From assembly GCA_018812245.1 (NCBI GenBank), contig JAHJDW010000132.1, positions 1 to 24,916 on the forward strand: 24,916 nt of DNA, read 5' to 3'. Positions 2,997 to 24,916 of this stretch are shown piece after piece. A program made the translations under genes and the position numbers. Within the stretch, counting starts at the first letter, position 1. Every line of letters starts with the position of its first letter. The notes below the pieces were generated by a model that saw only the letters and a list, made by a program, of their open reading frames with translations, made no database searches and was not told where the DNA came from. This DNA is from Bacteroidota bacterium. GTDB taxonomy: Bacteria; Bacteroidota; Bacteroidia; Bacteroidales; JAHJDW01.

Positions 2997-3011
2997 AAAA
3001 AAAATGCTATT

Positions 3012-5153: not shown

Positions 5154-5173
5154 GACAAGCAAAAATTGACAAT

Positions 5174-6193: not shown

Positions 6194-6214
6194 ATCACAA
6201 GCAACCATTATACT

Positions 6215-6457: not shown

Positions 6458-6510
6458 TCGTGGATTATGAATGAGTCGCGAATATTCACTCATAGGTATC
6501 ATAATAGATA

Positions 6511-7284: not shown

Positions 7285-7300
7285 ATACAGGAAATAAGTT

Positions 7301-8233
7301 ATGATTATTAGCGCGAGCAGAAGGACGGATATTCCGGCATTTTTCAGCGATTGGTTTTACAACAACCTTGGTCGGGGGTATTTCTTGGTGAGGAATCCCA
7401 TGAATATTCACCAAATCAGTCAAATAAACATTTCGCCAAGTACGGTTGACTGTTTTGTTTTCTGGACAAAAAACCCCGAACCATTTCTCCGAAGGATTAA
7501 AGAACTAAACGGCTACAAGTACTATTTTCAATATACGGTTACCGGGTATGGAAGGTCACTTGAACCGAACGTTCCATCAATGGAAAGCACAATTCAGACA
7601 TTCATTTCATTGTCAAAATCAATTGGCCCGAAACGCGTAATCTGGAGATACGACCCAATATTGCTTTCAAATAAATTTGACATGGAATTTCATGTGTCGA
7701 ATTTTACGAATATTGCGGGTAAACTATCTGGTCATACAAAAAGGTGTGTAATCAGCTTCGTTGACTTCTACAAAAAGACAATCCGAAACCTTTCAGGGAT
7801 AGATTATGATGATATATCCCAATATCAGATTGACGCTCTTGTAAAAAACCTTAGCGAAATAGCCCGCAGTCATAACATTGAATTAGTAACCTGCGCGGAG
7901 GATATTGACCTGCGCCGCTATAATGTGAATCAAGGAAAGTGCATTGACGAAAAACTAATAGAAGAGTTTACAGGATTTTCATTGAAGATAAAAAAAGACG
8001 CCAATCAGCGCCAGGAATGCGGTTGTGCGGCGAGCATAGATATTGGCGCGTACAATACCTGCCCCCATAGTTGTTTATATTGTTATGCCAATTTTGATTT
8101 GCGACAGGTTCGCGAGAACTACGAGCAGCATGACGAACACTCAGGACTCCTTTTCGGAAGCGTTGGGTCGAAGGATACAATTCGTCAAAGGAAAATGCTT
8201 AGTTGTAAAAACATTCAACAAAAACTCCTATAG
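7301..8233 (+). CDS. DUF1848-like protein with a C-terminal cysteine cluster (putative Fe-S/metal-binding)
   Basis: 310 aa. The N-terminus MIISASRRTDIPAFF matches my recollection of the DUF1848 (PF08902) signature. C-terminal cluster ECGCAASIDIGAYNTCPHSCLYCYAN. Starts 16 nt after the methyltransferase stop. Confidence 0.55.
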   Translation: MIISASRRTDIPAFFSDWFYNNLGRGYFLVRNPMNIHQISQINISPSTVDCFVFWTKNPEPFLRRIKELNGYKYYFQYTVTGYGRSLEPNVPSMESTIQTFISLSKSIGPKRVIWRYDPILLSNKFDMEFHVSNFTNIAGKLSGHTKRCVISFVDFYKKTIRNLSGIDYDDISQYQIDALVKNLSEIARSHNIELVTCAEDIDLRRYNVNQGKCIDEKLIEEFTGFSLKIKKDANQRQECGCAASIDIGAYNTCPHSCLYCYANFDLRQVRENYEQHDEHSGLLFGSVGSKDTIRQRKMLSCKNIQQKLL

Positions 8234-8321
8234 GCTCAGCAACTAATGTCCTGTATGCTTTGGACCCGATATCCAGAATTTCCAGTTATTGTTTTTTGTA
8301 ATTCAACTATTGAAATATCCC

Positions 8322-8510
8322 CTATGGGCGAAGTTGGTCTATCCCGTCAACCATTTGCTCCATTAATGTTTTCTGCTCCTCCAGCAATGAGATAACCATG
8401 TCCAATTTTCTTGAAATATCGTCCGTATCACTAGTCGAACTAGAAGTATTGGATTCAATACTAACCAATCTTCTTTCAATTTTTTCTAACCATTCAATTT
8501 CTGTTGCCAT
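8322..8510 (-). CDS. Small acidic hypothetical protein (62 aa)
   Basis: Only ORF between the DUF1848 gene and the tRNA. Coiled-coil-like, Ser/Asp/Glu-rich. Could be spurious. Confidence 0.25.
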   Translation of the reverse strand: MATEIEWLEKIERRLVSIESNTSSSTSDTDDISRKLDMVISLLEEQKTLMEQMVDGIDQLRP

Positions 8511-8730
8511 GCTAGTATAGTATAAATTGGGAGAATAACGTCATGAATTTTGACCAAAAATTCTTCCTATGAAATAATACTGCAAAGATAATTCAAAATT
8601 CAAGTGATTATGAATGATTGATGCAAATATTAACGAGATATTGATTCGCTGAATATTGAATTATTTGGTAAGGTTTTCATCATTGTATCATTTTCAGATT
8701 CAAAAAGTACACCTACTCCATACACCTTAT

Positions 8731-8764
8731 AAACAAAAAGGGTCACACGAATTTGTGTAACCCT
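8731..8764 (-). terminator. Intrinsic terminator downstream of tRNA-Pro
   Basis: Minus-strand reading AGGGTTACAC-AAATTC-GTGTGACCCT followed by TTTTTGTTTAT. The stem is 9 of 10 bp. It lies immediately 3' of the tRNA. Confidence 0.5.
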
Positions 8765-8778
8765 TTGATTTTCAACCG

Positions 8779-8852
8779 TCGGGGTGAGAAGACTCGAACT
8801 TCCGGCCCCTTGCACCCCATGCAAGTACGCTAGCCAACTGCGCCACACCCCG
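8779..8852 (-). tRNA. tRNA-Pro (anticodon GGG)
   Basis: Reverse complement CGGGGTGTGGCGCAGTTGGCTAGCGTACTTGCATGGGGTGCAAGGGGCCGGAAGTTCGAGTCTTCTCACCCCGA. Has a 7-bp acceptor stem (CGGGGTG/CACCCCG), D-arm GCGCAGTTGGCTAGCGT, anticodon stem CTTGC/GCAAG with loop ATGGGGT (U33, G37), and T-arm GGAAGTTCGAGTCTTCT. Closely resembles E. coli tRNA-Pro. No 3' CCA is encoded. Ends are +/-2 nt. Confidence 0.85.
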
Positions 8853-9317
8853 AACTTTCAACAGTACGCTATCAGCCTTACGGCAGACACGCCCCGAATT
8901 CCTTTATACAGGGCTGCGAAATTAATACTTATTTCAATGGCGGCAAACAATTTTGCTAAATATTTTGGAAGTCAGTTGGTCTCATTCATGGCTGCGCATA
9001 AAACAAAATGAACACCTGATCAATCTGTCAACTGAGGGCGGACTCGATTGGTGGCAACTTCAATTATTAATTACGGTATGATAAATACGTCACCACTAAT
9101 TAACTTATCCATTAAATATGTTGCCTCATCAACTATGTTTCCCATTGAATCCCACTCCTTCCATGATAAATACCCATTAGTCAATGTTTTCAGGTGGTGC
9201 GCAAAAGTCGTTCAACGAATTTGTATAAATTGCAATAGTCAATTTTGTTTATAATCTGAAAAATTGTCGGGTTTTTAGCGCCAGGAGGAACTACTAACAT
9301 CAACAGTTTCCCTAAAC

Positions 9318-10853
9318 CTACAATGGAATATTACCATGTTTTTTTGGTGGGTTTGATTTTCGTTTGTTCCGGCACATTTCCAAAGCCTGTATTAACTTAG
9401 GGCGGGTTTCTTTCGGGTAAATTATCTCATCGATGTAGCCAAGTTCAGCAGCTTTATACGGATTTGCAAAAGTATTTCTGTAATTATCAACGGCTGTATT
9501 GCGTTCTTCATCGGAGATTGTGCTTTTGAAAAGAATATTTACAGCTCCGGCGGCACCCATCACTGCAATTTCAGCCGAAGGATATGCGAAATTAACATCA
9601 GCTCCAATATGTTTGCTCGACATCACATCATACGCTCCGCCATACGCTTTACGGGTGATGACAGTAATTTTCGGAACGGTTGCCTCGCAGAACGCATACA
9701 ATAGTTTTGCGCCGTGTTTGATAATGCCTCCGAATTCCTGTTCTGTCCCGGGTAAAAATCCAGGTACATCAACAAAAGTAATGATAGGAATATTGAAGCA
9801 ATCACAGAAGCGTACAAACCGGGCTGCCTTAAGAGATGAATTAATATCAAGGACACCGGCAAGCACTTCAGGCTGATTTGCAACAATCCCCACAGGAAAT
9901 CCATTCAACCGCGTAAAGCCAATCAGGATATTCTGAGCATAATAGGGCATCACTTCAAAGAAGTTGTTATTATCACCCACACTCGTGATAATGTCTTTCA
10001 TGTTGTACGGCTTGTTCGGGTCATCGGGAACAACGGTCTGCAATTTTTCATCAAGCCTGTATATATCGTCCATACATTTTTTGTATGGCGGTTCATCCAT
10101 GTTGTTTAGCGGGAGGTAACTGATCAGCTCGCGCAACATCATCATACATTGTTCATCGTTATCAGCAACAAAGTGGGCTACTCCGCTTTTGGAATTGTGC
10201 GTCATTGCGCCCCCAAGTTCTTCTTTTGTCACCTCTTCGTGGGTAACTGCTTTAATAACATCAGGACCAGTGACAAACATATTGCTGGTATTCTTAACCA
10301 TCAGAATGAAATCTGTAATTGCAGGTGAATAAACGGCTCCACCGGCACATGCACCCAGAATAGCGGATATTTGAGGTATTACACCTGATGCAATTGTATT
10401 CAGGTAAAAAATTTCAGCATAACCTGCAAGGCTTTCGATGCCTTCCTGTATTCTCGCGCCTCCTGAATCGTTTAACCCTATTACCGGGGCTCCCATTCTC
10501 ATTGCGGTTTGCATCAGTTTTACAACTTTGTCGGCATTGGCCCGGCTCATAGTGCCTCCAAATACTGTAAAATCATTTGCGAAAACAAACATTAACCGCC
10601 CATCAATTTTCCCATATCCGGTAATCATCCCATCACCTGGAATTTTATTTTTCTCCATTCCGAAATCACTGCAACGATGGGTAACAAATTTGTCTGTTTC
10701 AACAAACGATCCGGGGTCAAGCAGATCATTGATCCTTTCTCTGGCGGTTTTTTTTCCTGCCTTATGATGTTTTTCAATCCGCTCAATTCCGCCGCCCAAT
10801 TCTGACTCTTTTTTCCGGTTTTCGAAAAGTCTGTATTTTTCTTCCAAGCTCAT
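9318..10853 (-). CDS. Biotin-dependent acyl-CoA carboxylase, carboxyltransferase subunit (propionyl-CoA carboxylase beta / methylmalonyl-CoA decarboxylase alpha family)
   Basis: 511 aa. Conserved carboxyltransferase N and C domains, e.g. [72 protein letters not shown]. Confidence 0.9.
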
Positions 10854-10893
10854 AATGTTATTGGTTTTAGTCGTGGTTGTGCAGAATCAAATT

Positions 10894-11406
10894 TTACTCA
10901 ACAATAATCAGGGGTTGGTTTGCAGTAACAGTGTCTCCTTCCTTAACTTTGATTTCTTTAATTATTCTGTCTTTTTTCACTTTATACTCGCTTTGCATTT
11001 TCATTGCTTCAACAATAATTACAGTCTGACCTTCTACTACAGAATCTCCGGCATTTACCAGAATTTTGACTACTTTTCCGGGCATAGGTGTGGAGATTAC
11101 GACTCCTGATTCATTGTCGTGTCCTTTTGGCCTGTTAAGCAAATACTTTGCTTCAGCATCAATAATGTCAACTTCGTACGTATGCTGATATGTTTGTACT
11201 TCGTATTTTTTTTTGTTTTCGCCACGGAAAATCTCAACGTTATATGATTTGCTTCCTATCACAATTGAATAAACGCCTTCTGAAACCCTGACAATATCCG
11301 TTTCATAAGTGGTATCATCAACTTGAAATGTTATCAGGTTTTCATCCCTTGTCAGCATATCAACCTGGCAAGTATGATTATTGTCAATATTTAATTCTAA
11401 TTTCAT
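10894..11406 (-). CDS. Biotin carboxyl carrier protein (biotinyl domain)
   Basis: 170 aa. C-terminal biotinyl-lysine motif VIIVEAMKMQSEY in a lipoyl/biotinyl hybrid-barrel context. Lies between the carboxyltransferase and biotin carboxylase genes. Confidence 0.85.
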   Translation of the reverse strand: MKLELNIDNNHTCQVDMLTRDENLITFQVDDTTYETDIVRVSEGVYSIVIGSKSYNVEIFRGENKKKYEVQTYQHTYEVDIIDAEAKYLLNRPKGHDNESGVVISTPMPGKVVKILVNAGDSVVEGQTVIIVEAMKMQSEYKVKKDRIIKEIKVKEGDTVTANQPLIIVE

Positions 11407-11429
11407 AGATCACTGTTTTGAAATATTAT

Positions 11430-12938
11430 TTACAATCGCATCATGCCTGCTTTTCTGCCGTGAGATTTCCATTCACTAATTGCCGGATTTTTTTCTTCAG
11501 AGTTGTTGCTTTTTTCATGCTGCGACAAGTAATCATAATAAGCAACCATGGCAGCAATATCTCTCTGGAAACTGTTTTCTGTCTTTGACTCAAAAAGGAA
11601 TGCCTTGTTGTTTTCAATAAAATGTGTACTGTATTTTCCGGATACAAAATCAGTTGCTTCCATGATTCTTTGAAGGAATTTTATGGAAGTTTTTATGCCG
11701 GTGATCTTGTATTCATATAAAGCTCTTTTCATTCTTTTAATGGCTTCATCGCGGGTTTTTCCCCAAACAATCAGTTTTGCAATCAAAGGATCATAATAGA
11801 TCGGTATTTCAAAACCTTCAAATACATATCCGTCAATCCTAATCCCAAAACCATGAGGTTCGCGCACGTACTTAATAATTCCGGGGCATGGCATAAAGTT
11901 ATTGTCAGTATCTTCAGCATAAATCCGGCATTGAATAGAGTGCCCGTCCTGGAATAAATCTTCCTGAACAAATGCTAATGGAAGGCCGTTTGCAATATTA
12001 ATCTGTTCTCTTACAAGATCAACACCGACGACTCTTTCAGTAACAGTGTGTTCGACCTGAAGTCGTGTATTCATTTCAAGGAAATAGAAATTCAGATCGT
12101 CGTCAACGATAAATTCAACAGTGCCTGCTCCGTGGTAGTTCACCGCTTTTGCCGCAGCAACTGCTGTTTCCCCCATTTTTTTTCTGACTTCGGGTGTTAG
12201 AATACACGAAGGCGTTTCCTCTATTACTTTCTGGTGGCGTCTCTGAACTGAGCATTCACGCTCGAAAAGATGAACCGTATTGCCGTGTTTGTCGGCAAGT
12301 ATTTGAAACTCGATATGGTGAGGCGATGCAATATATTTTTCGATATACACTGCATCGTTGCCGAATGCAGCTTTGGCTTCTGACTGCGCAGCGCGTACTG
12401 AAGGAATCACATCCTTCATGTTTTTCACAAGGCGCATTCCTTTACCTCCACCGCCGGCTGAAGCCTTTATCATTACCGGAACACCGATTTCTTTAACTAT
12501 TTCAAGCGCTTTGTTTTCATCGGTAATGCATTCAGTTGTTCCAGGTACAACAGGAACCCCCGCTTTTATCATGGTTTGACGTGCGGTAATCTTATCGCCC
12601 ATGGTAGAAATTGCATAAGGGTCAGGTCCAATAAAAATTATCCCTTCTTTTTGGCAGCGCTCCGAAAATGCAGCATTTTCGGACAAGAAACCGTATCCCG
12701 GATGTATCGCATCTGCTCCTGTTTTTTTTGCAGCTTCAATGATTTTATCAATTACAAGGTAGCTTTCAGAAGACGGTGAGGGACCGATACAGCAAACTTC
12801 TTCTGCATACCGAACATGCATCGACGGTCTGTCAACTTCTGAAAAAACTGCAACAACCGGAATACCTATTTCACGGCATGTACGCATGATTCTGACGGCT
12901 ATTTCTCCGCGATTTGCAATAAGAATTTTCTTGATCAT
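11430..12938 (-). CDS. accC: Biotin carboxylase subunit (ATP-grasp) of an acetyl/propionyl-CoA carboxylase
   Basis: 502 aa. N-terminus MIKKILIANRGEIAVRIMRTCREIGI, ATP-grasp motifs (MIKASAGGGGKGMR, EMNTRLQVEHTVTE), C-terminal biotin carboxylase domain. Confidence 0.9.
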   Translation of the reverse strand: MIKKILIANRGEIAVRIMRTCREIGIPVVAVFSEVDRPSMHVRYAEEVCCIGPSPSSESYLVIDKIIEAAKKTGADAIHPGYGFLSENAAFSERCQKEGIIFIGPDPYAISTMGDKITARQTMIKAGVPVVPGTTECITDENKALEIVKEIGVPVMIKASAGGGGKGMRLVKNMKDVIPSVRAAQSEAKAAFGNDAVYIEKYIASPHHIEFQILADKHGNTVHLFERECSVQRRHQKVIEETPSCILTPEVRKKMGETAVAAAKAVNYHGAGTVEFIVDDDLNFYFLEMNTRLQVEHTVTERVVGVDLVREQINIANGLPLAFVQEDLFQDGHSIQCRIYAEDTDNNFMPCPGIIKYVREPHGFGIRIDGYVFEGFEIPIYYDPLIAKLIVWGKTRDEAIKRMKRALYEYKITGIKTSIKFLQRIMEATDFVSGKYSTHFIENNKAFLFESKTENSFQRDIAAMVAYYDYLSQHEKSNNSEEKNPAISEWKSHGRKAGMMRL

Positions 12939-13896: not shown

Positions 13897-14349
13897 TCAC
13901 CCAACGCCTGCCAACTGCACAAACCCTGGAATCTCTCCAATAAACTCCCATGTCTTTTCAAGAAGATTTATCCTTGCCGTAAAACACCTTTCGCCATCAG
14001 TAATCAACAGATAATCAGCTTGTAACGCAAAGTTGTAAACTGCCGCCTGGGCAAATGTCTCAGAATCAATACCAGCATCTTTCGACTTGCATTCAACCAA
14101 AAGCCGTGGGCGCCCGCAATAGTCGCTTGCCAGAATGTCGAAACGCTTTTGCAGCCTGTTGTACGTCACTCTCTTTTCAATAGATAGCAACGATAGGGGA
14201 TACGCCAATTGGTAATGAAGAAAATGAATTACATGCTGCCTGATCCACTCTTCAGGAGTAAGCTGCACGTATTTTCTACGAACAGGATCGAAAATTTCCC
14301 TGCGACCGTCCGTCTCCCTGTATTTTGCACTGATAGGTGGAAAAATCAT
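13897..14349 (-). CDS. Standalone type I restriction enzyme HsdR N-terminal-domain protein (PD-(D/E)xK nuclease fold)
   Basis: 150 aa. RFDILA...PRLLVECKSK...QAAVYNFALQADYLLITDGE matches the HSDR_N D...ECK...Q..Y...TNG pattern. Confidence 0.65.
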   Translation of the reverse strand: MIFPPISAKYRETDGRREIFDPVRRKYVQLTPEEWIRQHVIHFLHYQLAYPLSLLSIEKRVTYNRLQKRFDILASDYCGRPRLLVECKSKDAGIDSETFAQAAVYNFALQADYLLITDGERCFTARINLLEKTWEFIGEIPGFVQLAGVG

Positions 14350-15330: not shown

Positions 15331-16860
15331 TTACTTCGCTGGTTTGTCGTCTTTCTTAACTTCGGGAGCGTTTGTTACGTCAGTAGCAGTTGCGTCTTCA
15401 GTTGTAGTTGATTTTCCTTTCAGGTACGATGGAAGCTCCATTCCTGCCATTTTGAAAAGTTCTTCAAATGGAGGAATCGAACCGAGCATTCCACTGAGGA
15501 AATTGGCAGTAGCCGGCTTGCCGTCTTTGCCACCCATGCTGTCCCATACCGTAACTTTGTCGATCTTGATGTTCTTGATGGCTTCAACCTGATGTTTAAC
15601 AATTTCAGGAAGTTTGTCAACAATCATCATCATTACAGCATCCTTGCTGCTATTGCCAGCCGACTTCATCAACTGCTCAAAGCCTTCGGCCTGCTTGGTG
15701 AGTATTTCATAAATACCGCGGGCTTCTGCTTCTTTCCTGAAGAAAATTCCATCGGCTTCACCTTTGGCAATTCTTCTGGTTTGTTCAGCTTTGGCTTCTG
15801 CATCAATTTCAACTTTTTGCTTGTCAATTTCAGCCGGAACAATAATGTCGGCAGTTTTCGAAGCTTTCTCTCTTTCGGCACGTGCAATTTCAGCTTTCTG
15901 CTCAGCTGCATAAGCCTCTTCGTTGGCCATAGCCGTTTTTACCTTTTCAGCAGCTGTTGCCTTTCGTGAAGCTTCAGCTTCGTTTTCACGACGGTTAGAA
16001 TCTGAATTTGCAATTGTAATCTTTGCAAGGTTTTCTCCTTCAACAGCAGTAGCATTGGCTTCTGCAACTTTTATCCTTTCAAGCCGTTCGGCGTCAGCTT
16101 CCCCGATTTTGGCAATTGCATTGGCATCAGCAACCTGAACCCTCTGCTCTTTCATCGCGTTTGCTTCACCGATAGAACCGTCTCTGTTCTTCTCTGCAAC
16201 ACTCTTCTTCGCATCATTGATGGCTTTTGCGGCGGCTTCTTTACCCAATGCCTCAATATAGCCTGATTCGTCGTTGATATCTGTAACGTTCACGTTGATC
16301 AATTTCAGCCCGATTTTCTTCAACTCGGCTTCCACATTGATAGACACATTGGTAAGGAATTTATCGCGATTGCTGTTGATTTCCTCAATTTCCATCGTGG
16401 CCACAACCAACCTCAACTGCCCGAAGAGAATGTCTTTGGCCATATTTGAAATTTCCTGTTCGGTAAGCCCCAGCAAGCGCTCGGCGGCTTTGTCCATGAT
16501 GCCGGCCTCGTTGCTGATACCCACTGTAAAACGGGAGGGAACGTCAACACGAATGTTTTGCTTTGAAAGTGCACTGGTCAGGTTAACTTCAATAGAAATT
16601 GGTGTCAGGTCGAGAAAATCAAAATCCTGAATAATCGGCCAGATAAAAGCTGCGCCCCCGTGAATACATTTGGCGGAGCGACTTTCGTCACTCTTCCCTT
16701 TACCTACTTTCCCATATACCACAAGTATTCTGTCGCTGGGACATCTCTTATACCTTTTAAGCAGGCTATAAACAAGAATAAAAAAGAACAGAACCACCAC
16801 ACCAATAATGATTGCGGTATATTGTCCTGCCATGTTTTCAAGCAAAATTGACTGAATCAT
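15331..16860 (-). CDS. Flotillin-like SPFH/band-7 protein
   Basis: 509 aa. N-terminal TM helix, SPFH domain, then a long Ala/Glu/Lys-rich coiled coil (AEANATAVEGENLAKITIANSDSNRRENEAEASRKATAAEKVKTAMANEEAYAAEQKAEIARAEREKA) typical of bacterial flotillins. Confidence 0.85.
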   Translation of the reverse strand: MIQSILLENMAGQYTAIIIGVVVLFFFILVYSLLKRYKRCPSDRILVVYGKVGKGKSDESRSAKCIHGGAAFIWPIIQDFDFLDLTPISIEVNLTSALSKQNIRVDVPSRFTVGISNEAGIMDKAAERLLGLTEQEISNMAKDILFGQLRLVVATMEIEEINSNRDKFLTNVSINVEAELKKIGLKLINVNVTDINDESGYIEALGKEAAAKAINDAKKSVAEKNRDGSIGEANAMKEQRVQVADANAIAKIGEADAERLERIKVAEANATAVEGENLAKITIANSDSNRRENEAEASRKATAAEKVKTAMANEEAYAAEQKAEIARAEREKASKTADIIVPAEIDKQKVEIDAEAKAEQTRRIAKGEADGIFFRKEAEARGIYEILTKQAEGFEQLMKSAGNSSKDAVMMMIVDKLPEIVKHQVEAIKNIKIDKVTVWDSMGGKDGKPATANFLSGMLGSIPPFEELFKMAGMELPSYLKGKSTTTEDATATDVTNAPEVKKDDKPAK

Positions 16861-17480: not shown

Positions 17481-17624
17481 ACTTAAAATATAATTTGAAG
17501 AAAAGGCAGAAATATTTCTTATTTTTTATTAAACGGGTATTAACTGTTTTGTGGAAACCCTGAGAAGATTGCATCACATACATATACGATGGCGGCTATT
17601 TTATGCCTACATTTGCACCTTTCG

Positions 17625-20015
17625 ATGAAACGATTATGGAAAATATGGGTTTCTGACAAAGGGCTGATGTTGACGGCCGCCTGTCTGTTAATACTATTTG
17701 TCATGGTCTGTCCGTCGAAAAATCAACTCTTTTCAGATCCCTGCTCTACCGTTTTGTTAGACAGGGACGGAGAACTGATGGGAGCCAGTATCGCCGACGA
17801 CGGACAGTGGCGCTTTCCCCAAAGCCGTATTGTTCCTTATAAATTCATGATTGCAATCACCCAATTCGAGGACCAAAACTTTTTTCTGCATAGCGGCGTC
17901 GATTACGTTTCTGTAGTCCGTGCTGCATATCAGAATATTGCATCTATGAGCATCGTTAGCGGTGGTAGCACAATTACGATGCAGGTGGTTCGCATTGCCC
18001 GGAAAAATCAGCCCAGAAACTTTTTTCAGAAATTTATCGAAATTATCTGGTCATTTCGACTCGAACTGACTGCAAATAAACTTGAAATTCTTTCGCTTTA
18101 CGCTTCTAATGCGCCGTTTGGGGGTAACGTTGTAGGACTTGATGCTGCAGCATGGCGGTATTACGGTCGTTCGCCCGACAAGCTAAGCTGGGGCGAAGCA
18201 GCTACCCTTGCTGTGCTTCCCAATAGTCCGTCGCTCGTGCATCCGGGAAAAAACGACAAAAAACTGCTTGAGAAAAGAAATCGCTTGCTGGACAAACTTT
18301 TCAGGAAGGGTTTTATTGATGAATCAACCTGTGAGCTTGCCAAGCAGGAGCCGCTTCCGGGAGCACCGAAACCGCTGCCACGTCTGGCTCCTCATTTACT
18401 TGATCGTCTGTATGCCGACGGACACAGGGGCGAGATAGTTACAAGTTCGGTCGATAAACATATTCAGGAAAGACTCAACGAGTTGGCTGCATATCATCAT
18501 GGGAGACTTAAGGCAAACGATATTAGCAATCTGGCTGCATTGATTCTGGATACGGAGACTGGCGAAGCGCTCGGTTATGTAGGCAATATTCCTGATTTTG
18601 AAGATGATGTGCATGGCTGTCAGGTTGATATTATTACCGCTTCCCGATCAACTGGCAGCATACTCAAACCATTTCTTTATGCTGCTTTGCTGCAGGATGG
18701 AAAAATTCTGCCTACTACGCTGATTCCTGATATCCCATCGCAGATATACGGATTTAAACCCGAGAATTACAACAAAACGTATGATGGCGCAGTTCCTGCA
18801 AAAAGAGCATTGGCGCGTTCGCTGAATATTCCAGCGGTGTTTATGCTGCGCATGTATGGCGCCGATAAATTCCATTTCCTGCTTCGCAAACTTGGAATGT
18901 CAACCATTGTGTATCCTGCCAGTCATTACGGGCTTGCCATGATAATAGGTGGTGCCGAAGGAACACTTTGGGATATGACTGGAATTTTCGCCAGTATGGC
19001 ACGCACGCTGAAGCATTACCCTGAGTACAACGGAATGTACGACAGGTCAGACTTCCACTCACCGACATACATAGTTACATCCGGGAAAAGAAAGCCCGAA
19101 CTTACTGCTACTCCGTCGATATTCAGTGCAGCCGCTATTTGGACCACGTTCAATGCAATGATAGAGGTTTCGCGCCCTGATGAGGAAAGGAACTGGAAGT
19201 ATTTTAGTTCATCATCGCCTGTAGCCTGGAAAACAGGTACGAGTTTCGGAAACCGCGATGGATGGGCGATTGGATGTACTCCGCAATATACTGTCGGAGT
19301 TTGGGTTGGAAATGCCGATGGGGAGGGGCGACCATTTCTCACGGGAATAAGCGCTGCTGCTCCACTATTATTCGATATTTTCTCTGTGGTTAAGCCAAGG
19401 GGCTGGTTCTCAATTCCTTATGATGAAATGGAACGAATCCCGATTTGTCGGTATAGCGGATATAAGAATGGTCCCAATTGTGAGTCTATTGATACAATTT
19501 GGGCATTATCCCAATGTGCGAATTCCGGATTGTGTCCATATCACCAGATTGTTCATCTTGATAGTACTGAAAAATATCGTGTCAACAGTGAATGCGAACT
19601 GGTCGCAAACATGAAACACAAGCCTTGGTTTGTGCTACCTCCTGTAATGGAGTATTATTTTCGCTCAAAAAATTCATTTTACAAAATGCTTCCGCCCTTG
19701 CGTGAGGATTGCAGCCGGGGAGGGGGCGACATGTCGTCGCTGGAGATAATATACCCAAAGCCTGGTGCAAAAATTTATGTCCCCGTTGAACTTGACGGAA
19801 CGCCTGGACAGAGTATTTTCAAAGCTGCTCACAGGGCACCGGAGAAAGAAATATTCTGGCATCTCGACGATGAATTTGTGACCGTCACTACCTCACTTCA
19901 TTCTATCTCCATCAGACCGCCCCCCGGCAAACACCGCCTGACCCTTGTTGATGAGGATGGAGAAACCATTTACGTTGATTTTGAGGTGCTTGAAAAGGGG
20001 AAAAAGCAAAACTGA
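17625..20015 (+). CDS. pbpC: Penicillin-binding protein 1C (bifunctional glycosyltransferase/transpeptidase)
   Basis: GT51 motifs EDQNFFLHSGVDYVSVVRA and RIARKN, transpeptidase SxxK (STGSILKPFLY) and KTG (WKTGTSFGNRDGW), C-terminal PbpC-type domain. The track's ORF starts at ATG 17589. The Met at 17625 (MKRLWKIW..., membrane anchor) follows a TACATTTG -7 motif at 17608-17615 and is preferred. The start could also be the Met at 17667. Confidence 0.85.
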   Translation: MKRLWKIWVSDKGLMLTAACLLILFVMVCPSKNQLFSDPCSTVLLDRDGELMGASIADDGQWRFPQSRIVPYKFMIAITQFEDQNFFLHSGVDYVSVVRAAYQNIASMSIVSGGSTITMQVVRIARKNQPRNFFQKFIEIIWSFRLELTANKLEILSLYASNAPFGGNVVGLDAAAWRYYGRSPDKLSWGEAATLAVLPNSPSLVHPGKNDKKLLEKRNRLLDKLFRKGFIDESTCELAKQEPLPGAPKPLPRLAPHLLDRLYADGHRGEIVTSSVDKHIQERLNELAAYHHGRLKANDISNLAALILDTETGEALGYVGNIPDFEDDVHGCQVDIITASRSTGSILKPFLYAALLQDGKILPTTLIPDIPSQIYGFKPENYNKTYDGAVPAKRALARSLNIPAVFMLRMYGADKFHFLLRKLGMSTIVYPASHYGLAMIIGGAEGTLWDMTGIFASMARTLKHYPEYNGMYDRSDFHSPTYIVTSGKRKPELTATPSIFSAAAIWTTFNAMIEVSRPDEERNWKYFSSSSPVAWKTGTSFGNRDGWAIGCTPQYTVGVWVGNADGEGRPFLTGISAAAPLLFDIFSVVKPRGWFSIPYDEMERIPICRYSGYKNGPNCESIDTIWALSQCANSGLCPYHQIVHLDSTEKYRVNSECELVANMKHKPWFVLPPVMEYYFRSKNSFYKMLPPLREDCSRGGGDMSSLEIIYPKPGAKIYVPVELDGTPGQSIFKAAHRAPEKEIFWHLDDEFVTVTTSLHSISIRPPPGKHRLTLVDEDGETIYVDFEVLEKGKKQN

Positions 20016-20134: not shown

Positions 20135-23100
20135 ATGCAGTCAGTGAGAATTTTTCTGTTCGTTTTTCTTTTGGGATTTGGCTTCCAGGCAGTTGTGGCC
20201 CAGGATGCTTTTAACAACGAAGGGAGAATGAAAACCGAAGCCGATCGCCTTTTTTTAGATCAGGATTATGCGGCAGCTTATCCGCTGTATTCGCAGTTAG
20301 TTAGTGTTTACCCAAAAAACCCTGAATACAATTATCGCTTTGGTGTTTGCATTTTGCATGCTGACCCGGAAACTGAGAAGGCGATTCCTTTTCTGGAATT
20401 TGCCATGGAAAATGATCCCAAAGTTGACAAAAAGGTATATTTCTATATGGGGAGGGCGTACCACCTCAATTATAATTTCGGACAGGCGATATCTTATTAC
20501 CAGCAGTATCTCCAGCAGGGAAAAAATAAAAAGGAAATCGAATCCTTTCAGGTAAACCGGAGAATTGAGATGTGTAACAACGGGAAAAGGTTACTTAGTA
20601 AGGTTAGCGACCTCTATGTACTGAATAAGAGGGATATCAATCAGAAATGGTTCTTCAGAAGTTATGAAATTGATGACGAAGCCGGGAAGATTCTTGCACT
20701 TTCCCCCGAGTTTTCTACTTCTCTTGATCAGAAAAAAGCTGATCCGAATGCTGTGATGTTTATTACTCCTGATAAAAACCAGATTTTCTTCGGTAGTTAT
20801 GGTAAATCAGGAGAAACCGGAAAGGATATTTATCGTGTGGCCAAAATGTCGGATGGGAAATGGAGTCCGCCTATCAACGTTGGTAACGTCATCAATACAC
20901 CGTATGATGAGGATTTTCCTTACCTGACTGCCGATGGGAAAACGCTATACTTCTGTTCGCGCGGTCATAACAGCATGGGTGGTTTTGATATCTTCAGAAG
21001 CAATTTTAATGAAAAGACACAACAGTGGTCAACACCTGAAAATCTTGATTTTGCAGTAAATACGCCTTACGACGATATTTTGTTCATCCCCGATGCAAAG
21101 GAAAGATTTGCATGGTTCTCGTCGAACCGCTCAAATAATACTCAAATGATATCACATTTCAGGGTTAGAATCGACAAACGCCCAGTGCCTCAGGATGCAA
21201 TTGCTCTCAATTCGGGTGACGACGAAGAAGTGGCACCTGAAGTCATTCAAAAAATCCTCCAGAAGGCAAAACTGGATGTGAATGCAGATGAAAGCCAGTT
21301 TGCGAATGAAGCTGAAATTGCCAATTCCGAAACTGATGATTACAAAACCCTTGATCTTACAGGAAATGTAACGAGCGAGGATGTGATCAAGCTTGCTTTC
21401 GACAATGCCAAAGCAATTCAGGATGATGCTGACTTGCTGAATATTAAATCTACCGAAGCAGTTGAGCTGGCAGGAACGAAATCGACACAGGCCGAAAATA
21501 AGATGAAAGCCTCACGCGATAAGTACAATATGGCTTCCAATACTTCCGACAATTCAGCTAAGGAACGAGCGATTAAGGATGCCCAGATTTTACAGTACGA
21601 TGCCGATAAGCTGAAACAGGAGTCGGCAATCACCTACAGGATTGCGAAAGAACTCAGCATAAAGGCGAAGAATGTTCAAAAGGATGCAGATCAGGCTTTT
21701 GATTACGCCCGTAAACTCGAAAATGCACTTAAAACCATGTCGCTTGAAGATGCTACGGCATGGCTTGAGGATCAAAATCTGAAAATGAAGGCATCATCCG
21801 GTAGTGATCAGATTAAGCCCGACGATTTTCAGATTTCTGAAGTCGATTACAACAAAAAGAAAGAAGAAGCCTCTGATAATAAGGTGGAAGCCAAAATCCT
21901 GACTGATGAAGCCAGAAAATGGAAAGCGGAAGCTGCCGACCTGAGAATTCAGGCAGAAGGCGAAAAAAAGGATGATAAAAAACAACCATTGCTCGCCCAG
22001 GCCAATCAGCTTGAAAAAGACGCCGCCGAGAATCTGAAAGACGCCGCCACCTACGAAAGAAAAGCGGAACACTCAAACCATCAGGCCGACAGCATTCTGA
22101 CCGAGCTTGCTGTTGTTAACGAATTCATCAAGAATATGAATACAGGAAGTACCGATATCGGTGTCTCTCAGGATAAAATTAACGCGGCCAATATTAATGC
22201 TTTGGAAAATGAATCAGGCAACCTGACCAATAAAATTAGGGCAAACGAAAGCAATATAAGCAATTTTCGCGTTAGTCCCAATGTAAGTACAACTGCAGTC
22301 AGGGCGGCGCAGCTTGAAGATGAATCCAAACTATATGCCTCTCAGGCTTCCGGAAATCTCCAGAAAGCAAAAAAAGAAACGGATGATTCCAAGCGGAAAG
22401 CGTACATGATCAAATCGAATGAGTTGTACGCAAAAGCCGTTGAGAAGCAGGATGAGGCCATTGCAACATACAAAGAAGCACAAACAGAAACGCAAGGCAG
22501 CAACGAATTGGCAAGCCTTGTCGAAGAGTTGAGCCTCGGCGTAACTGCGCAGAAACTCGCTGCTACTGATGTTAACGAGATAAAAAGCGCTGCTAAGACA
22601 AGCGAAAACAATTACAACGAACAGAAGAAAGAAGTTGATGCAGTGAGAATAGAAGATATGAGCAACAAGGAAGCCTTGCTTGCCAGTCAGTTGGAAGATG
22701 AAGCTTCAATGTATCAGGATCAGGCTGATGATTTCAAAATAAAGGCAAATGCCGAACCCAACGAACAGAAGAAAAAAGCTTACCTGACCAAAGTCGATGA
22801 GTTGCTGAAAAAAGCAACACGAGTTGAGAAGGAGGCAGTAACCCGCTATAACCGTGCAGCAGCAAGCTCAACATCTCCAACAGCCACGGCAGACAATAGC
22901 ACTTCAGGCTCAAAAACTAACCCGGTAACTGATGTGAATCCTTCTGGAACCAACCCAAGCGGAACAAATCCTGACAAAGATCCGAAGAAATATCAGGAAA
23001 AAAGCAAGGGTAGCCTTATTGTGATGACGGCCGACGAGGTTCCTGATCCAGGTGATCTGGTTCTTATTGCCGATGAAAATGCGGAGCGCATGAAGCAAAA

Positions 23101-24916
23101 AGGTCGTGAGCTAAACAAAGAGTCGGATGCTGCTTTTTACCTCGCCGACCAGAAAACAAGGCGGGCCGATGATTTGATGAAAAAGGCAAAAAATGCCGAA
23201 AATAATGGTGATGCCAAAGGTGCGGAGGAATATTCAAGTCAGGCAAAGCAAATGCTCTATGAAGCAAATGTGGCATATTCTCTGGCAAATAATCTCGAAG
23301 AACAGGCCGATGAATTGGACAACGACGCTACCTCAACGCAGAAGCTTGCAATCGAAATCAGAAACAATCTCAATGTTCAGGATGTTGATAAGGCAAAAGC
23401 AAAGTTCTCTGAACACAACGCGCTGCTTGCCAATCATTCGCAGGGATTTAAATCGGAAGTGAATTATTCAGTTACCCTTGATAAGGTTGCTTCAGAAAAG
23501 AAAAAGGAAGCTGATGCCAATGATAGGATTGCATCGGATTTGGAAAATGAAGCTGCTGATTTACAGGCCAAAGCAACCGATTTATATACTCAGGCCGAAG
23601 GCAAAAAAGGGAAGAAAAGGGATGAACTTACAGCTCAGGCAAGGAATGCCGAAAGCGAAGCTACTTCAAAGGAAGTACTGGCAAATGAATACAAGGAAAA
23701 AGCCGCACTATCAAGAGAAGAAGCCAATAGCCTGGCGAATAGCGGCATTGTTAATAATGTGAAAACAGAAATTAAAGGACTTTCTTCAAAAAGCAGTATT
23801 CCCCTTACCACTAGTACAGACACCGATGTTTCAAATCGCCTCGACGAAATGAATGCGTACTATGGTGATAAGAAAAATGAAGTTTCTCTGCCATCTGATC
23901 TTTCTGCGGCGAATTCCGGAAACCCTGTAACGCCGGTAAATACAGGCAATAACGGAAATAATACCTCTTATACTCCGGCAAATACTGTACCTGCAAAGTT
24001 TGTTGCTTCAGCAATCGACCCTAACAACGTCACTTTGGATAAGGAAGAATTGGATGAATCTGACGTTGATGATTTTGAAGTTGCTTACAACAGCAGCAGC
24101 CGGAATTTCATTGAAAACGAGAAATCGCTTGATGGTGTGAGGATTTATGACGCACAAAATAAGGATGTTGCTGTTGCATTGAAATATGAAAAACAAGCTG
24201 AGCAACTCACTGCAAAAGCTGATGAATATCGGAACCAATCAGCCAACGCCGGCGACCCTGCAAAAAAGAAAGAGTTGATGGCTAAGGCCGATAAACTGAA
24301 TGAAGAGGCCGTTGCCAGTCAGAAGGAGGCAATTGATGTTTATAAGAAAGTGCAAATGGATATTGCCATGAATAATCCAGGCGATAACCGTTTTGCCGCT
24401 GAAATTTCTGCAGCACGTCTCGAAGCTTCCGTAAATAAAGCAGAAGACAAAAAGAATAAGGCTGCACAGCTTCGCGGACAGGCAACTCAGACCGCCAGTC
24501 AGGCTGAAAAAGAAAAGCTGATGTCGGAGGCCATGAGTCTTGAATTATCGGCCAGAGATGAAGAAATTAACGCTTATGAGGAAATCGCTGCACCGAACCA
24601 GAGCGCATACAGCGGGAATAAAAATACGCTGAAGCAGGTTTACTATGATAATTCAAATGAGCAGCTTACGATTGCCCGCATGTTGTATGAAGAGTCACAG
24701 ATATACTTCAATAGAGCTCAGGAAACCCGCGCCAAAGCCGAAACTGAGGATACTTACACATCCAAAAAGGCTCTCTTGAAAGAAGCATCGGATAACGAAC
24801 TGATTGCGCTGAAAAAACAGCAGGAAGCATTGAATATTTTAAGAACAGTTCCGAATATTTCGAAGGATGATGCAGTTGCAATGAACACAAATCCGGGAAA
24901 CAATACTGTTCGGACA
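20135..24916 (+). CDS. Giant secreted protein, 3' truncated by the window: signal peptide, TPR-like region, PD40/TolB-like beta-propeller repeats, long degenerate coiled-coil repeat region
   Basis: Hand translation from ATG 20135 runs 1594 codons to the window end with no stop. It is absent from the supplied ORF track because no stop lies in the window. MQSVRIFLFVFLLGFGFQAVVAQ signal. TPR-like helices (YAAAYPLYSQLVSVYPKNPEYNYRFGVCIL...). PD40-type repeats (PYDEDFPYLTADGKTLYFCSRGHNSMGGFDIF, PYDDILFIPDAKERFAWFSSNR). Then at least 7 copies of a ~57-aa Ala/Lys/Glu-rich repeat and two Thr/Pro/Asn-rich linkers. Confidence 0.8.
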   Translation, partial: MQSVRIFLFVFLLGFGFQAVVAQDAFNNEGRMKTEADRLFLDQDYAAAYPLYSQLVSVYPKNPEYNYRFGVCILHADPETEKAIPFLEFAMENDPKVDKKVYFYMGRAYHLNYNFGQAISYYQQYLQQGKNKKEIESFQVNRRIEMCNNGKRLLSKVSDLYVLNKRDINQKWFFRSYEIDDEAGKILALSPEFSTSLDQKKADPNAVMFITPDKNQIFFGSYGKSGETGKDIYRVAKMSDGKWSPPINVGNVINTPYDEDFPYLTADGKTLYFCSRGHNSMGGFDIFRSNFNEKTQQWSTPENLDFAVNTPYDDILFIPDAKERFAWFSSNRSNNTQMISHFRVRIDKRPVPQDAIALNSGDDEEVAPEVIQKILQKAKLDVNADESQFANEAEIANSETDDYKTLDLTGNVTSEDVIKLAFDNAKAIQDDADLLNIKSTEAVELAGTKSTQAENKMKASRDKYNMASNTSDNSAKERAIKDAQILQYDADKLKQESAITYRIAKELSIKAKNVQKDADQAFDYARKLENALKTMSLEDATAWLEDQNLKMKASSGSDQIKPDDFQISEVDYNKKKEEASDNKVEAKILTDEARKWKAEAADLRIQAEGEKKDDKKQPLLAQANQLEKDAAENLKDAATYERKAEHSNHQADSILTELAVVNEFIKNMNTGSTDIGVSQDKINAANINALENESGNLTNKIRANESNISNFRVSPNVSTTAVRAAQLEDESKLYASQASGNLQKAKKETDDSKRKAYMIKSNELYAKAVEKQDEAIATYKEAQTETQGSNELASLVEELSLGVTAQKLAATDVNEIKSAAKTSENNYNEQKKEVDAVRIEDMSNKEALLASQLEDEASMYQDQADDFKIKANAEPNEQKKKAYLTKVDELLKKATRVEKEAVTRYNRAAASSTSPTATADNSTSGSKTNPVTDVNPSGTNPSGTNPDKDPKKYQEKSKGSLIVMTADEVPDPGDLVLIADENAERMKQKGRELNKESDAAFYLADQKTRRADDLMKKAKNAENNGDAKGAEEYSSQAKQMLYEANVAYSLANNLEEQADELDNDATSTQKLAIEIRNNLNVQDVDKAKAKFSEHNALLANHSQGFKSEVNYSVTLDKVASEKKKEADANDRIASDLENEAADLQAKATDLYTQAEGKKGKKRDELTAQARNAESEATSKEVLANEYKEKAALSREEANSLANSGIVNNVKTEIKGLSSKSSIPLTTSTDTDVSNRLDEMNAYYGDKKNEVSLPSDLSAANSGNPVTPVNTGNNGNNTSYTPANTVPAKFVASAIDPNNVTLDKEELDESDVDDFEVAYNSSSRNFIENEKSLDGVRIYDAQNKDVAVALKYEKQAEQLTAKADEYRNQSANAGDPAKKKELMAKADKLNEEAVASQKEAIDVYKKVQMDIAMNNPGDNRFAAEISAARLEASVNKAEDKKNKAAQLRGQATQTASQAEKEKLMSEAMSLELSARDEEINAYEEIAAPNQSAYSGNKNTLKQVYYDNSNEQLTIARMLYEESQIYFNRAQETRAKAETEDTYTSKKALLKEASDNELIALKKQQEALNILRTVPNISKDDAVAMNTNPGNNTVRT

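What the first reader, a model, noticed from the sequence alone, without database searches (positions are those of the whole stretch)
20135..24916. Giant TPR-PD40-coiled-coil protein missing from the ORF track, with a degenerate ~57-aa repeat
An open frame of at least 1594 codons starts at 20135 and runs off the window. After a TolB/OmpA-type N-terminus (signal, TPR, PD40 repeats) it carries at least 7 copies of a degenerate unit of the form L-x-D-E-A-x-x-Y-x-x-Q-A...K-K-K-A-Y-L-x-K-x-x-E-L-x-x-K-A...E-A-x-x-x-Y-x-x-A. Examples: LEDESKLYASQASGNLQKAKKETDDSKRKAYMIKSNELYAKAVEKQDEAIATY, LEDEASMYQDQADDFKIKANAEPNEQKKKAYLTKVDELLKKATRVEKEAVTRY, ALKYEKQAEQLTAKADEYRNQSANAGDPAKKKELMAKADKLNEEAVASQKEAIDVY. 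The copies are separated by Thr/Pro/Asn-rich linkers. Bacteroidota proteins with this N-terminus usually end in an OmpA domain soon after. Here a coiled-coil repeat array of over 1200 aa replaces or precedes it. The repeats are diverged at nucleotide level, so they are ancient and not an assembly artefact.
Basis: seen in the sequence. Interest (0 to 1): 0.6.

Follow-up and report, generated by a model that had tools for sequence, protein, structure and literature searches.

The report
Giant PorE-like helical-hairpin envelope protein
The end of the window encodes the first 1,594 residues of a roughly 2,000-residue exported Bacteroidota cell-envelope protein with a TPR/beta-propeller head and a long stalk of repeated helical hairpins; its relatives end in three cell-wall-binding SPOR domains, and the family is widespread but unnamed and unstudied.

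Summary
Positions 20135-24916 (+) are one open frame of 1,594 codons that runs off the contig end. That is the only reason it is missing from the ORF list.

- **N-terminus:** Sec signal peptide, TPR and PD40 repeats, homologous to the middle of PorE/CHU_0125 but far below both family cut-offs.
- **Rest of the protein:** about 75% predicted alpha-helix.
- **Repeat:** 8 robust copies of a ~58-aa module, dispersed rather than tandem. Each copy is an antiparallel helix-turn-helix hairpin. Ala recurs every 7th residue, alternating with Leu/Ile/Tyr, in both helices (Alacoil-like).
- **Linkers:** three to four disordered Ser/Thr/Asn/Pro-rich segments interrupt the helices.
- **Missing C-terminus:** neither OmpA nor a T9SS signal. 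Of 29 relatives examined, 26 end in exactly three SPOR domains.
- **Distribution:** relatives occur in at least 591 species-level Bacteroidota genomes. All names seen are generic ("hypothetical" or "PD40 domain-containing").
- **Annotation:** the hairpin module has no Pfam, NCBIfam or PDB match. It also occurs in small secreted two-hairpin proteins.

Most likely function (inferred, not shown): a periplasmic, peptidoglycan-anchored tether or scaffold, probably biased to the septum. I class it as a new variant of a known kind, of moderate interest.

The parts
20135..24916 (+). Partial CDS: the first 1,594 codons of a giant envelope protein, cut by the contig end. An alternative in-frame ATG lies at 20072.
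   Evidence: It differs from the NCBI partial protein KKA07_16445 (GCA_018822935.1) by a single residue, T336 versus P336. The upstream ATG would add 21 residues before the signal peptide and has no support from homologues.
20135..20200 (+). Sec (SPase I) signal peptide, aa 1-22, with predicted cleavage VVA|QD. There is no lipobox Cys.
   Evidence: Read from the sequence. Relatives share the ...AQ motif at the same place. No signal-peptide predictor was available.
20222..20542 (+). TPR region, aa ~30-136, containing the family-invariant Cys72; the second invariant Cys, Cys147, lies just downstream of it.
   Evidence: Consensus-TPR PDB chains match aa 41-132 at E=2.8e-17. Pfam TPR hits are weak.
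20627..21184 (+). PD40-type beta-propeller region, aa ~165-350, with at least 3 recognisable blades.
   Evidence: Pfam PD40 E=7e-8. The blades match each other internally, 209-259~263-314 and 242-294~297-349. NCBIfam PorE and CHU_0125 models match aa 208-336.
21374..22219 (+). First helical block, aa 414-695: long helices of 41-59 residues paired as hairpins, including repeat copy 1.
   Evidence: AF2 model of aa 395-1594, with pLDDT about 80-89 in this block. The block is conserved across the family.
21884..22099 (+). Hairpin repeat copy 1 (aa 584-655)
   Evidence: Homologue-only HMM, 33.1 bits. The AF2 turn at aa 610-612 coincides with the model loop.
22220..22294 (+). Disordered Asn/Ser/Thr-rich linker (aa 696-720)
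22301..22477 (+). Hairpin repeat copy 2 (aa 723-781)
   Evidence: 18.7 bits. It is 42% identical to copy 3 and they are each other's best match.
22676..22855 (+). Hairpin repeat copy 3 (aa 848-907)
   Evidence: 30.3 bits. AF2 turn at aa 874-876.
22871..23047 (+). Disordered Ser/Thr/Pro/Asn-rich linker (aa 913-971)
23210..23368 (+). Hairpin repeat copy 4 (aa 1026-1078), the weakest copy
   Evidence: 10.2 bits against a shuffle maximum of 6.3. AF2 draws this stretch as one helix, so its hairpin status is uncertain.
23525..23701 (+). Hairpin repeat copy 5 (aa 1131-1189)
   Evidence: 16.7 bits. AF2 turn at aa 1156-1159.
23792..24115 (+). Long disordered Ser/Thr/Asn/Pro-rich linker region (aa 1220-1327)
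   Evidence: pLDDT is about 27-32.
24170..24349 (+). Hairpin repeat copy 6 (aa 1346-1405)
   Evidence: 38.4 bits. Helix-turn-helix in both AF2 models.
24428..24586 (+). Hairpin repeat copy 7 (aa 1432-1484)
   Evidence: 27.5 bits. AF2 hairpin with pLDDT above 90.
24668..24844 (+). Hairpin repeat copy 8 (aa 1512-1570). This is the family's best-conserved copy and the last helical element before the linker and SPOR tail seen in relatives.
   Evidence: 57.2 bits. AF2 hairpin with pLDDT above 90. It is orthologous to the last repeat of P0003, P0044 and P0005.
24881..24916 (+). Start of the Asn/Thr-rich linker that precedes SPOR domain 1 in relatives. The contig ends here.
   Evidence: The NCBI contig ends at the same base.

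Best explanation
The window ends inside the gene for a roughly 2,000-residue exported envelope protein of a large, unnamed Bacteroidota family.

Anatomy (shown by tool results):
- A cleavable Sec signal peptide with no lipobox.
- A TPR plus PD40 beta-propeller head, homologous to the corresponding part of PorE/CHU_0125.
- An acidic stalk of about 1,200 residues, about 75% helical. It contains about ten antiparallel helix-turn-helix hairpins, with helices of 30-60 residues.
- Eight of the hairpins are recognisable copies of one ~58-aa module. Its core is Ala every 7th residue alternating with Leu/Ile/Tyr in both helices (Alacoil-like).
- Three to four disordered Ser/Thr/Asn/Pro-rich linkers break up the stalk.

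Inferred by homology: about 350-450 residues are missing, namely a linker plus three C-terminal SPOR domains.

Mechanism (inferred): the protein stays in the periplasm.
- The triple SPOR tail binds peptidoglycan glycan strands that lack stem peptides. These are enriched at the division septum, which is the known property of SPOR domains.
- The TPR/propeller head binds an outer-membrane or envelope partner, as proposed for PorE.
- The hairpin-plus-linker chain, about 65 nm if the hairpins are laid end to end, gives a long, flexible, possibly extensible connection or scaffold along the wall.

In short, it is a PorE/CHU_0125-type peptidoglycan anchor in which three SPOR domains replace the OmpA_C domain and a giant helical spacer has been inserted.
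For: - ORF and domains.
- Family and architecture of full-length relatives.
- SPOR tail: exactly three SPOR-like modules at the extreme C-terminus in 26 of 29 relatives, and in most complete loci from 80 species-level genomes.
- SPOR identity: 18 of 24 modules hit Pfam SPOR and no other family. A profile of the modules hits the CwlC SPOR structure 1x60 at E=3.9e-5.
- Repeat statistics.
- Hairpin fold: AF2 with pLDDT above 90 for copies 7 and 8. The model is 75% helix, and for six of the eight copies (1, 3, 5, 6, 7 and 8) its turn falls at the HMM loop.
- Heptad core: Ala at model positions 1/8/15/22 and 38/45/52 (61-86%), hydrophobic residues at 4/11/18 and 34-35/41/55-56, over 186 repeat instances. 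The same signature gives 22 windows in aa 395-1594, against a mean of 0.8 and a maximum of 8 in 500 shuffles.
- Exported protein: signal peptide, two invariant Cys in the head, and no Cys in the stalk.
- No T9SS C-terminal domain in four full-length relatives.
- PorE precedent for a 'head binds partner, tail binds peptidoglycan' design: PMC7192894 and the abstract of PMC12773672. CHU_0125: PMC5891637.
- Envelope-type neighbours in other loci, including a BepA/LoiP-like M48 lipoprotein protease in 26 loci.
Against: - The C-terminus of this particular protein is not in the window. Three attempts to extend it failed, so SPOR is inferred only from relatives that are 25-32% identical overall.
- No experiment exists for any family member, and nothing was found in the searchable literature.
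- The partner of the head is unknown.
- The hairpin arrangement is unresolved: pTM is 0.32 for the long model.
- About 65 nm of hairpins exceeds the width of a periplasm. A simple perpendicular OM-to-wall strut is therefore unlikely, and the geometry is guesswork.
- Conserved surface residues in the module (E7, R19, K31, E42, K48, Q49) hint that the hairpins do more than act as spacers.
- Gene neighbourhood gives no strong functional link, and here it differs from most relatives.
Confidence: 0.55

Rival explanations
1. It is a divergent PorE orthologue: a structural component of the type IX secretion system that anchors the machine to peptidoglycan, here through SPOR instead of OmpA_C.
For: - The best NCBIfam hits are PorE and CHU_0125.
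- The P0002/P0015 subgroup keeps the CRD-like domain after the propeller, as PorE does, and its match extends to PorE positions 287-519.
- T9SS cargo genes lie near relatives.
Against: - Scores are 79-96 bits against cut-offs of 600-620.
- There is no lipobox, whereas PorE is an acylated outer-membrane lipoprotein.
- The window protein has no CRD and its relatives have no OmpA_C.
- No por/gld genes lie next to it.
- The 1,200-aa insertion has no counterpart in PorE.
Confidence: 0.1
2. The hairpin array is itself the functional part: a polymerising or partner-binding periplasmic lattice or track, for example for gliding or envelope organisation. The head and SPOR tail would serve only as anchors.
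For: - The module has conserved polar surface positions.
- It exists as an independent unit in small secreted two-hairpin proteins, one of which is in the same MAG as a giant protein.
- Copy number varies from 0 to 8 between species.
- A conserved unannotated ~1,500-aa exported protein lies two genes upstream in 38 loci.
Confidence: 0.2
3. It is a secreted or cell-surface fibrous protein (adhesin or S-layer-like) rather than a periplasmic one.
For: It is very large, repetitive and acidic, with Ser/Thr/Asn-rich linkers typical of surface proteins. Neighbouring T9SS cargo genes occur in some loci.
Against: - Full-length relatives have no Por_Secre_tail or other outer-membrane export signal.
- They end in SPOR domains, which act on peptidoglycan inside the outer membrane.
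- The head is homologous to periplasmic PorE/CHU_0125.
Confidence: 0.07
4. It is an assembly artefact, a chimera or a decaying pseudogene with low-complexity filler.
For: The contig breaks inside the gene, and the source is a metagenome-assembled genome.
Against: - 1,594 codons are open.
- The protein is colinear with hundreds of relatives along its whole length.
- There are no long DNA repeats.
- The heptad core is conserved.
Confidence: 0.02

Closest known systems
PorE (PG1058), type IX secretion system, Porphyromonas gingivalis
   Same: An exported periplasmic protein with an N-terminal TPR followed by a PD40/WD40 beta-propeller. It shares the design of a protein-binding head plus a C-terminal peptidoglycan-binding domain. 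A sister subgroup of the family also has the CRD-like domain.
   Different: PorE is 668 aa, is an acylated outer-membrane lipoprotein and ends in OmpA_C. The window protein has no lipobox, no CRD and a ~1,200-aa helical insertion, and its relatives end in three SPOR domains. Its score of 79 bits is far below the family cut-off of 600.
CHU_0125 family OmpA-like outer-membrane integrity protein (Cytophaga hutchinsonii 'Pal')
   Same: TPR plus PD40 followed by a peptidoglycan-binding domain. It gives the best NCBIfam hit, 88.8 bits over aa 208-336.
   Different: It is 656 aa with an OmpA_C domain. The family cut-off of 620 bits is not reached. It has no helical array and no SPOR.
SPOR-domain proteins (E. 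coli FtsN, DamX, DedD, RlpA; B. subtilis CwlC, PDB 1x60)
   Same: Relatives carry bona fide SPOR domains. From established knowledge, SPOR domains bind denuded glycan strands and target proteins to the septum.
   Different: Known SPOR proteins have one C-terminal SPOR, occasionally more, behind a membrane anchor or an enzyme domain. None that I could find has three SPOR domains behind a TPR/propeller head and a giant hairpin stalk. SPOR is not observable in the window itself.
TolB (Tol-Pal system)
   Same: A periplasmic PD40 beta-propeller protein that links envelope layers and acts in division (general knowledge).
   Different: There is no TolB N-terminal domain. The domain order differs, and the link to peptidoglycan is covalent in one polypeptide rather than through Pal.
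Alacoil-type antiparallel coiled coils (Gernert et al. 1995, recalled from memory, not checked here)
   Same: Ala or another small residue at every 7th position in both helices of an antiparallel pair, alternating with larger hydrophobic residues. AF2 models show hairpins.
   Different: Alacoil is a structural motif, not a homologous family.
Treponema pallidum Arp (TP0433): repeat array plus SPOR domain
   Same: An acidic repeat region combined with a SPOR domain (PMC9531955, listed; only the title and abstract were read).
   Different: The Arp repeats are short, near-identical tandem units with no detected similarity to the hairpin module. Arp has no TPR/PD40 head and one SPOR.

Membership tests
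PorE family T9SS protein (NF052230) | Full-length match above the curated cut-off of 600 bits | tested here: not met
   79.3 bits, covering only aa 210-334 against model positions 286-406. Relatives score 79-96 bits.
PorE family T9SS protein (NF052230) | Outer-membrane lipoprotein (lipobox Cys after the signal peptide) | tested here: not met
   There is no Cys in aa 1-71. The cleavage motif is VVA|QD. The lipoprotein nature of PorE is from PMC7192894.
PorE family T9SS protein (NF052230) | TPR domain followed by a WD40/PD40 beta-propeller | tested here: met
PorE family T9SS protein (NF052230) | Carboxypeptidase-regulatory-like domain (CRD) after the propeller | tested here: not met
   No PF13620 or PF13715 hit in the window protein. 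A CRD-like segment is visible in the P0002 and P0015 sequences, and PorE model positions up to 519 match in P0002.
PorE family T9SS protein (NF052230) | C-terminal OmpA_C-like peptidoglycan-binding domain | tested here: not met
   Absent from the 1,594 aa and from full-length relatives, which carry SPOR instead.
CHU_0125 family OmpA-like protein (NF053607) | Full-length match above the cut-off of 620 bits, including OmpA_C | tested here: not met
   88.8 bits, aa 208-336 only.
SPOR-domain peptidoglycan-binding proteins (PF05036) | Presence of a SPOR domain | not testable with these tools
   The window ends before the C-terminus and extension failed. In relatives the feature is met: 26 of 29 have three modules, 18 of 24 modules hit PF05036, and the profile hits CwlC SPOR 1x60 at E=3.9e-5.
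SPOR-domain peptidoglycan-binding proteins (PF05036) | Binding to denuded glycan strands and septal localisation | not testable with these tools
   Needs biochemistry and microscopy.
TolB | TolB N-terminal domain plus a six-bladed PD40 propeller | tested here: not met
   There is no TolB N-terminal domain hit. Only one PD40 repeat is significant, plus two internal blade matches.
T9SS cargo | C-terminal Por_Secre_tail/CTD | tested here: not met
   No such hit in the full-length relatives P0003, P0005, P0006 and P0011. It is not testable for the truncated window protein itself.
Antiparallel (Alacoil-like) coiled-coil hairpin | Heptad a/d pattern with a small residue every 7th position in both helices | tested here: met
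   (186 instances); none of 500 shuffles reached the observed count.
Antiparallel (Alacoil-like) coiled-coil hairpin | Two helices packed antiparallel at close spacing | tested here: inconclusive
   AF2 predicts helix-turn-helix with 3-4-residue turns and pLDDT above 90 for two copies.
TPR-type helical repeat, as an alternative identity for the ~58-aa unit | 34-aa TPR consensus | tested here: not met
   There are no TPR hits beyond aa 136. The repeat profile finds no natural PDB protein; the best hit is a de novo design at E=0.003.

The most novel reading that the evidence does not exclude
The family is a missing envelope organiser of many non-model Bacteroidota. Under this reading it is a septum-targeted, multivalent SPOR-anchored tether whose hairpin-and-linker chain couples outer-membrane partners to the dividing wall, or forms a periplasmic lattice or track. 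It would take over roles played elsewhere by Tol-Pal, Lpp or FtsN-type proteins. The Ala-heptad hairpin would be a new periplasmic structural domain, also used by small secreted paralogues.
Probability: 0.15. Interest if true: 0.75.

Novelty: new variant of a known kind. Interest (0 to 1): 0.45.

Why it matters
How Bacteroidota tie their outer membrane to the cell wall, and how they coordinate envelope constriction, is poorly understood. They lack Braun's lipoprotein, and their known anchors are PorE/CHU_0125-type OmpA proteins.

This gene represents a family present in at least 591 species-level genomes. The family combines a PorE-like head, an unannotated helical-hairpin domain and a triple SPOR wall anchor, and nobody appears to have named or studied it. 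It offers several concrete things to test:
- a candidate septal or peptidoglycan tether;
- a new, easily modelled repeat domain;
- natural variation in copy number, which could be used to ask whether stalk length matters.

For genome annotation, it shows that these 'hypothetical/PD40 domain-containing' giants can be described much more precisely.

Tried and rejected
- **Whole-protein self-BLAST:** gave no off-diagonal hits because of HSP culling. I replaced it with fragment-versus-fragment BLAST.
- **Extending the gene:** all attempts failed.
  - The genome-contig scan with the single protein found nothing.
  - The only contig on record ends at the same base.
  - The metagenome-contig scan with aa 1290-1594 found no close relative.
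- **Aligning 94 long proteins:** the tool failed, so I used 30.
- **N-terminus against PDB sequences:** only designed TPR proteins matched. Only the C-terminal domain of PorE has been solved.
- **Repeat profile against PDB:** only de novo designs.
- **Single-sequence phmmer of a SPOR tail against PDB:** nothing. A profile was needed.
- **AFDB Foldseek:** the library was unavailable.
- **Simple per-window hydrophobic Fourier analysis of the single sequence:** uninformative. The heptad signal appeared only in the repeat alignment.
- **Functional link to the upstream class A PBP:** rejected. It is found next to the gene in none of 82 other loci.
- **Literature searches:** four searches combining SPOR, PD40, TPR and Bacteroidota terms found no description of this architecture.
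- **TolB, T9SS cargo and TPR-like identities:** considered and rejected (see the membership tests).
Full report
**1. The observation**

Translating 20135-24916 (+) gives 1,594 codons with no stop. The ORF lister omits ORFs that run off the source by rule, so "missing from the ORF track" has no biological meaning.

The same partial protein is in NCBI as KKA07_16445 from a Bacteroidetes MAG. Its 8,241-nt contig ends at exactly the same base. The window differs from that record by one base (21140 A versus C, T336 versus P336) and extends 16.7 kb further upstream.

An in-frame ATG at 20072 would add 21 residues in front of the signal peptide. Homologues start at the position of 20135.

**2. The head**

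- Residues 1-22 look like an SPase I signal peptide (…QAVVA|QD) with no lipobox Cys. This was read; no predictor was available.
- Residues ~40-136 are TPR. Consensus-TPR structures match at E=2.8e-17.
- Residues ~165-350 carry PD40 repeats. Pfam gives E=7e-8, and the blades also match each other.
- NCBIfam's only hits are CHU_0125_OmpA (88.8 bits, cut-off 620) and PorE (79.3 bits, cut-off 600). Both cover only aa ~208-336.

The head is therefore homologous to part of these proteins, but the protein is not a member of either family. PorE is TPR–five-bladed propeller–CRD–OmpA_C and an acylated outer-membrane lipoprotein (PMC7192894). CHU_0125 is TPR–PD40–OmpA_C (PMC5891637). Two Cys in the head (C72, C147) are invariant across 30 family members. 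That is consistent with a periplasmic disulfide, which is an inference.

**3. The repeat**

Fragment-versus-fragment BLAST gives 26 off-diagonal matches of at least 30 bits in the tail, against 0-1 in 20 shuffles.

An HMM built only from repeats of 29 homologues finds eight copies in the window protein: aa 584-655, 723-781, 848-907, 1026-1078, 1131-1189, 1346-1405, 1432-1484 and 1512-1570. They score 10-57 bits, and the shuffled maximum is 6.3. The consensus is TLAKKLENEADSYFSKAKKLRKEAENTKDKTEKKELLKEAESLEKEALEKQKEAIEIYNK.

The copies are dispersed, with starts 80-215 aa apart. A ~126-aa super-unit is duplicated (675-782 ~ 801-908), and part of it recurs at 1291-1405. No DNA repeat exceeds 28 nt.

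Six of the eight copies match repeats of other species' proteins better than their own paralogues, so they are old. Copies 2 and 3 are each other's best match, so they arose by a lineage-specific duplication.

**4. Structure of the stalk**

The AF2 model of aa 1290-1594 has mean pLDDT 70.7, with values above 90 over copies 7 and 8. It shows each copy as helix–3/4-residue turn–helix.

The AF2 model of aa 395-1594 has mean pLDDT 64 and pTM 0.32. It is 75% helical, with about 22 helices of 12-82 residues. Eight helix pairs are joined by 3-4-residue turns. For copies 1, 3, 5, 6, 7 and 8 the turn falls at the HMM loop. Disordered linkers lie at aa 696-720, 913-971, 1220-1231 and 1244-1327.

Across 186 repeat instances the pattern is as follows:

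| Element | Ala positions (61-86% Ala) | Hydrophobic positions (Leu/Ile/Tyr) |
|---|---|---|
| Helix 1 | 1, 8, 15, 22 | 4, 11, 18 |
| Helix 2 | 38, 45, 52 | 34/35, 41, 55/56 |

The loop at positions 23-30 is Asn/Thr/Asp/Ser-rich. This is a clean heptad a/d core in both helices, with the small-residue-every-seventh signature of Alacoil-type antiparallel coiled coils. The Alacoil comparison is from memory. The same signature is enriched through the whole stalk: 22 windows, against a mean of 0.8 and a maximum of 8 in 500 shuffles.

The stalk is acidic (net charge −53) and free of Cys. Laid end to end as hairpins, the helices would span roughly 65 nm. The relative arrangement of the hairpins is not determined.

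**5. The missing C-terminus**

The window ends just after the family's best-conserved hairpin, at the start of an Asn/Thr-rich linker.

In 26 of 29 aligned relatives the protein ends in exactly three ~85-aa modules. Of 24 such modules, 18 hit Pfam SPOR and nothing else. Their profile hits the solved CwlC SPOR domain 1x60 at E=3.9e-5. Whole-protein SPOR scores for P0005, P0006 and P0011 exceed the Pfam cut-off. No OmpA_C or T9SS CTD is present.

I therefore predict about 350-450 missing residues: a linker plus three SPOR domains. This is an inference. Three attempts to extend the gene failed.

**6. Distribution and annotation**

The word-index search found 920 homologues. The 80 closest are almost all titled as Bacteroidota (one contig is labelled Candidatus Dependentiae) and are mostly MAGs: Flavobacteriales including Crocinitomicaceae, Fluviicola, Vicingaceae, Cryomorphaceae and Salibacteraceae, plus Bacteroidales and Lentimicrobiaceae.

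In complete loci the ORF is 1,600-2,500 aa, with 2-3 (once 4) SPOR modules and 0-7 recognisable hairpins. The names given by sources are mostly generic. No NCBIfam model covers full-length members.

**7. Context**

Here the gene follows a class A PBP with a PbpC-type C-terminal domain, on the same strand after a 119-nt gap. That PBP lies next to the gene in none of 82 other loci.

Many other loci share the order tpiA–prmA–[~1,500-aa exported protein with no Pfam or NCBIfam hit]–plsY–giant–(clpS)–M48 BepA/LoiP-like lipoprotein protease. Individual genes of this block are found in 26-38 loci. This is mild support for an envelope role and nothing more.

**8. Mechanism**

Shown: the anatomy of the head and the stalk. 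Inferred by homology: the SPOR tail.

Inferred from established knowledge: SPOR domains bind glycan strands stripped of stem peptides, and so concentrate at the septum. TPR and propeller domains are protein-binding scaffolds, as proposed for PorE.

I therefore propose a periplasmic, multivalently wall-anchored tether or scaffold. Its head holds an unknown envelope partner, and its hairpin-and-linker chain gives reach and flexibility. Confidence is about 0.55.

The main rival (about 0.2) is that the hairpin array is itself the active part, as a lattice, track or binding platform. A divergent PorE role (0.1), a surface protein (0.07) and an artefact (0.02) are less likely.

**9. Verdict**

The protein is an ordinary member of its family. 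The family itself is an undescribed variant of the PorE/CHU_0125 type of peptidoglycan anchor, and it contains an unannotated Ala-heptad hairpin domain. Interest is moderate, at 0.45.

Noticed in passing
window 2564-2633 (+) and 2935-3002 (+): Two copies of the Rfam 'DUF805 RNA' cis-regulatory motif (RF03081; 72 and 80 bits, gathering score 51). One overlaps the start of a small ORF (2618-2875). The other lies just upstream of a 629-aa MORN-repeat protein (3012-4901).
   Followed up: no
window 8778-8852 (-): tRNA-Pro (anticodon GGG), sitting in a ~1.1-kb stretch (8234-9317) with no ORF of 80 aa or more.
   Followed up: no
window 17589-20015 (+): A class A penicillin-binding protein (transglycosylase plus transpeptidase plus PbpC-type BiPBP_C domain) lies directly upstream on the same strand. 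This adjacency is found in none of 82 other loci of the family.
   Followed up: yes
window 9318-12938 (-): Three consecutive genes for a biotin-dependent acyl-CoA carboxylase: carboxyltransferase, a biotin-carrier protein and biotin carboxylase.
   Followed up: no
window 21140: The window differs from NCBI contig JAHJIZ010000455.1 by a single base (A versus C), giving T336 instead of P336 in the giant protein. The window extends 16.7 kb further upstream than that contig, but both end at the same base.
   Followed up: partly
L003 2838-7277; L076 3746-8230; also L038, L039, L059, L060, L072, L074, L080 (~3500-8300): A conserved ~1,500-aa protein with an apparent N-terminal signal peptide and no Pfam or NCBIfam hit lies two genes upstream of the giant gene (order: this ORF, plsY, giant) in 38 loci. 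It is a possible functional partner and is absent from the window.
   Followed up: partly
P0176, P0180, P0188, P0225, P0249 and others; L084 5109-5906: A family of 205-285-aa proteins that each start with an apparent signal peptide and carry two copies of the same hairpin module. It has no Pfam match. P0225 lies in the same MAG (GCA_025360565.1) as a 2,269-aa giant (L029).
   Followed up: partly
P0035 and about 20 similar ~985-aa proteins: A paralogous family without stalk or SPOR. In P0035 the TPR-PD40 unit appears twice in one chain, with CarboxypepD_reg-like segments. It scores higher on the PorE and CHU_0125 models (150-167 bits) than the giants do.
   Followed up: no
window 226-1554 (-), 7301-8233 (+), 13897-14349 (-), 15331-16860 (-): Other genes in the window: a Ser/Thr protein kinase, a DUF1848 protein, an HSDR_N_2 (type I restriction R N-terminal-like) protein and a 509-aa SPFH/Band 7 protein.
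   Followed up: no
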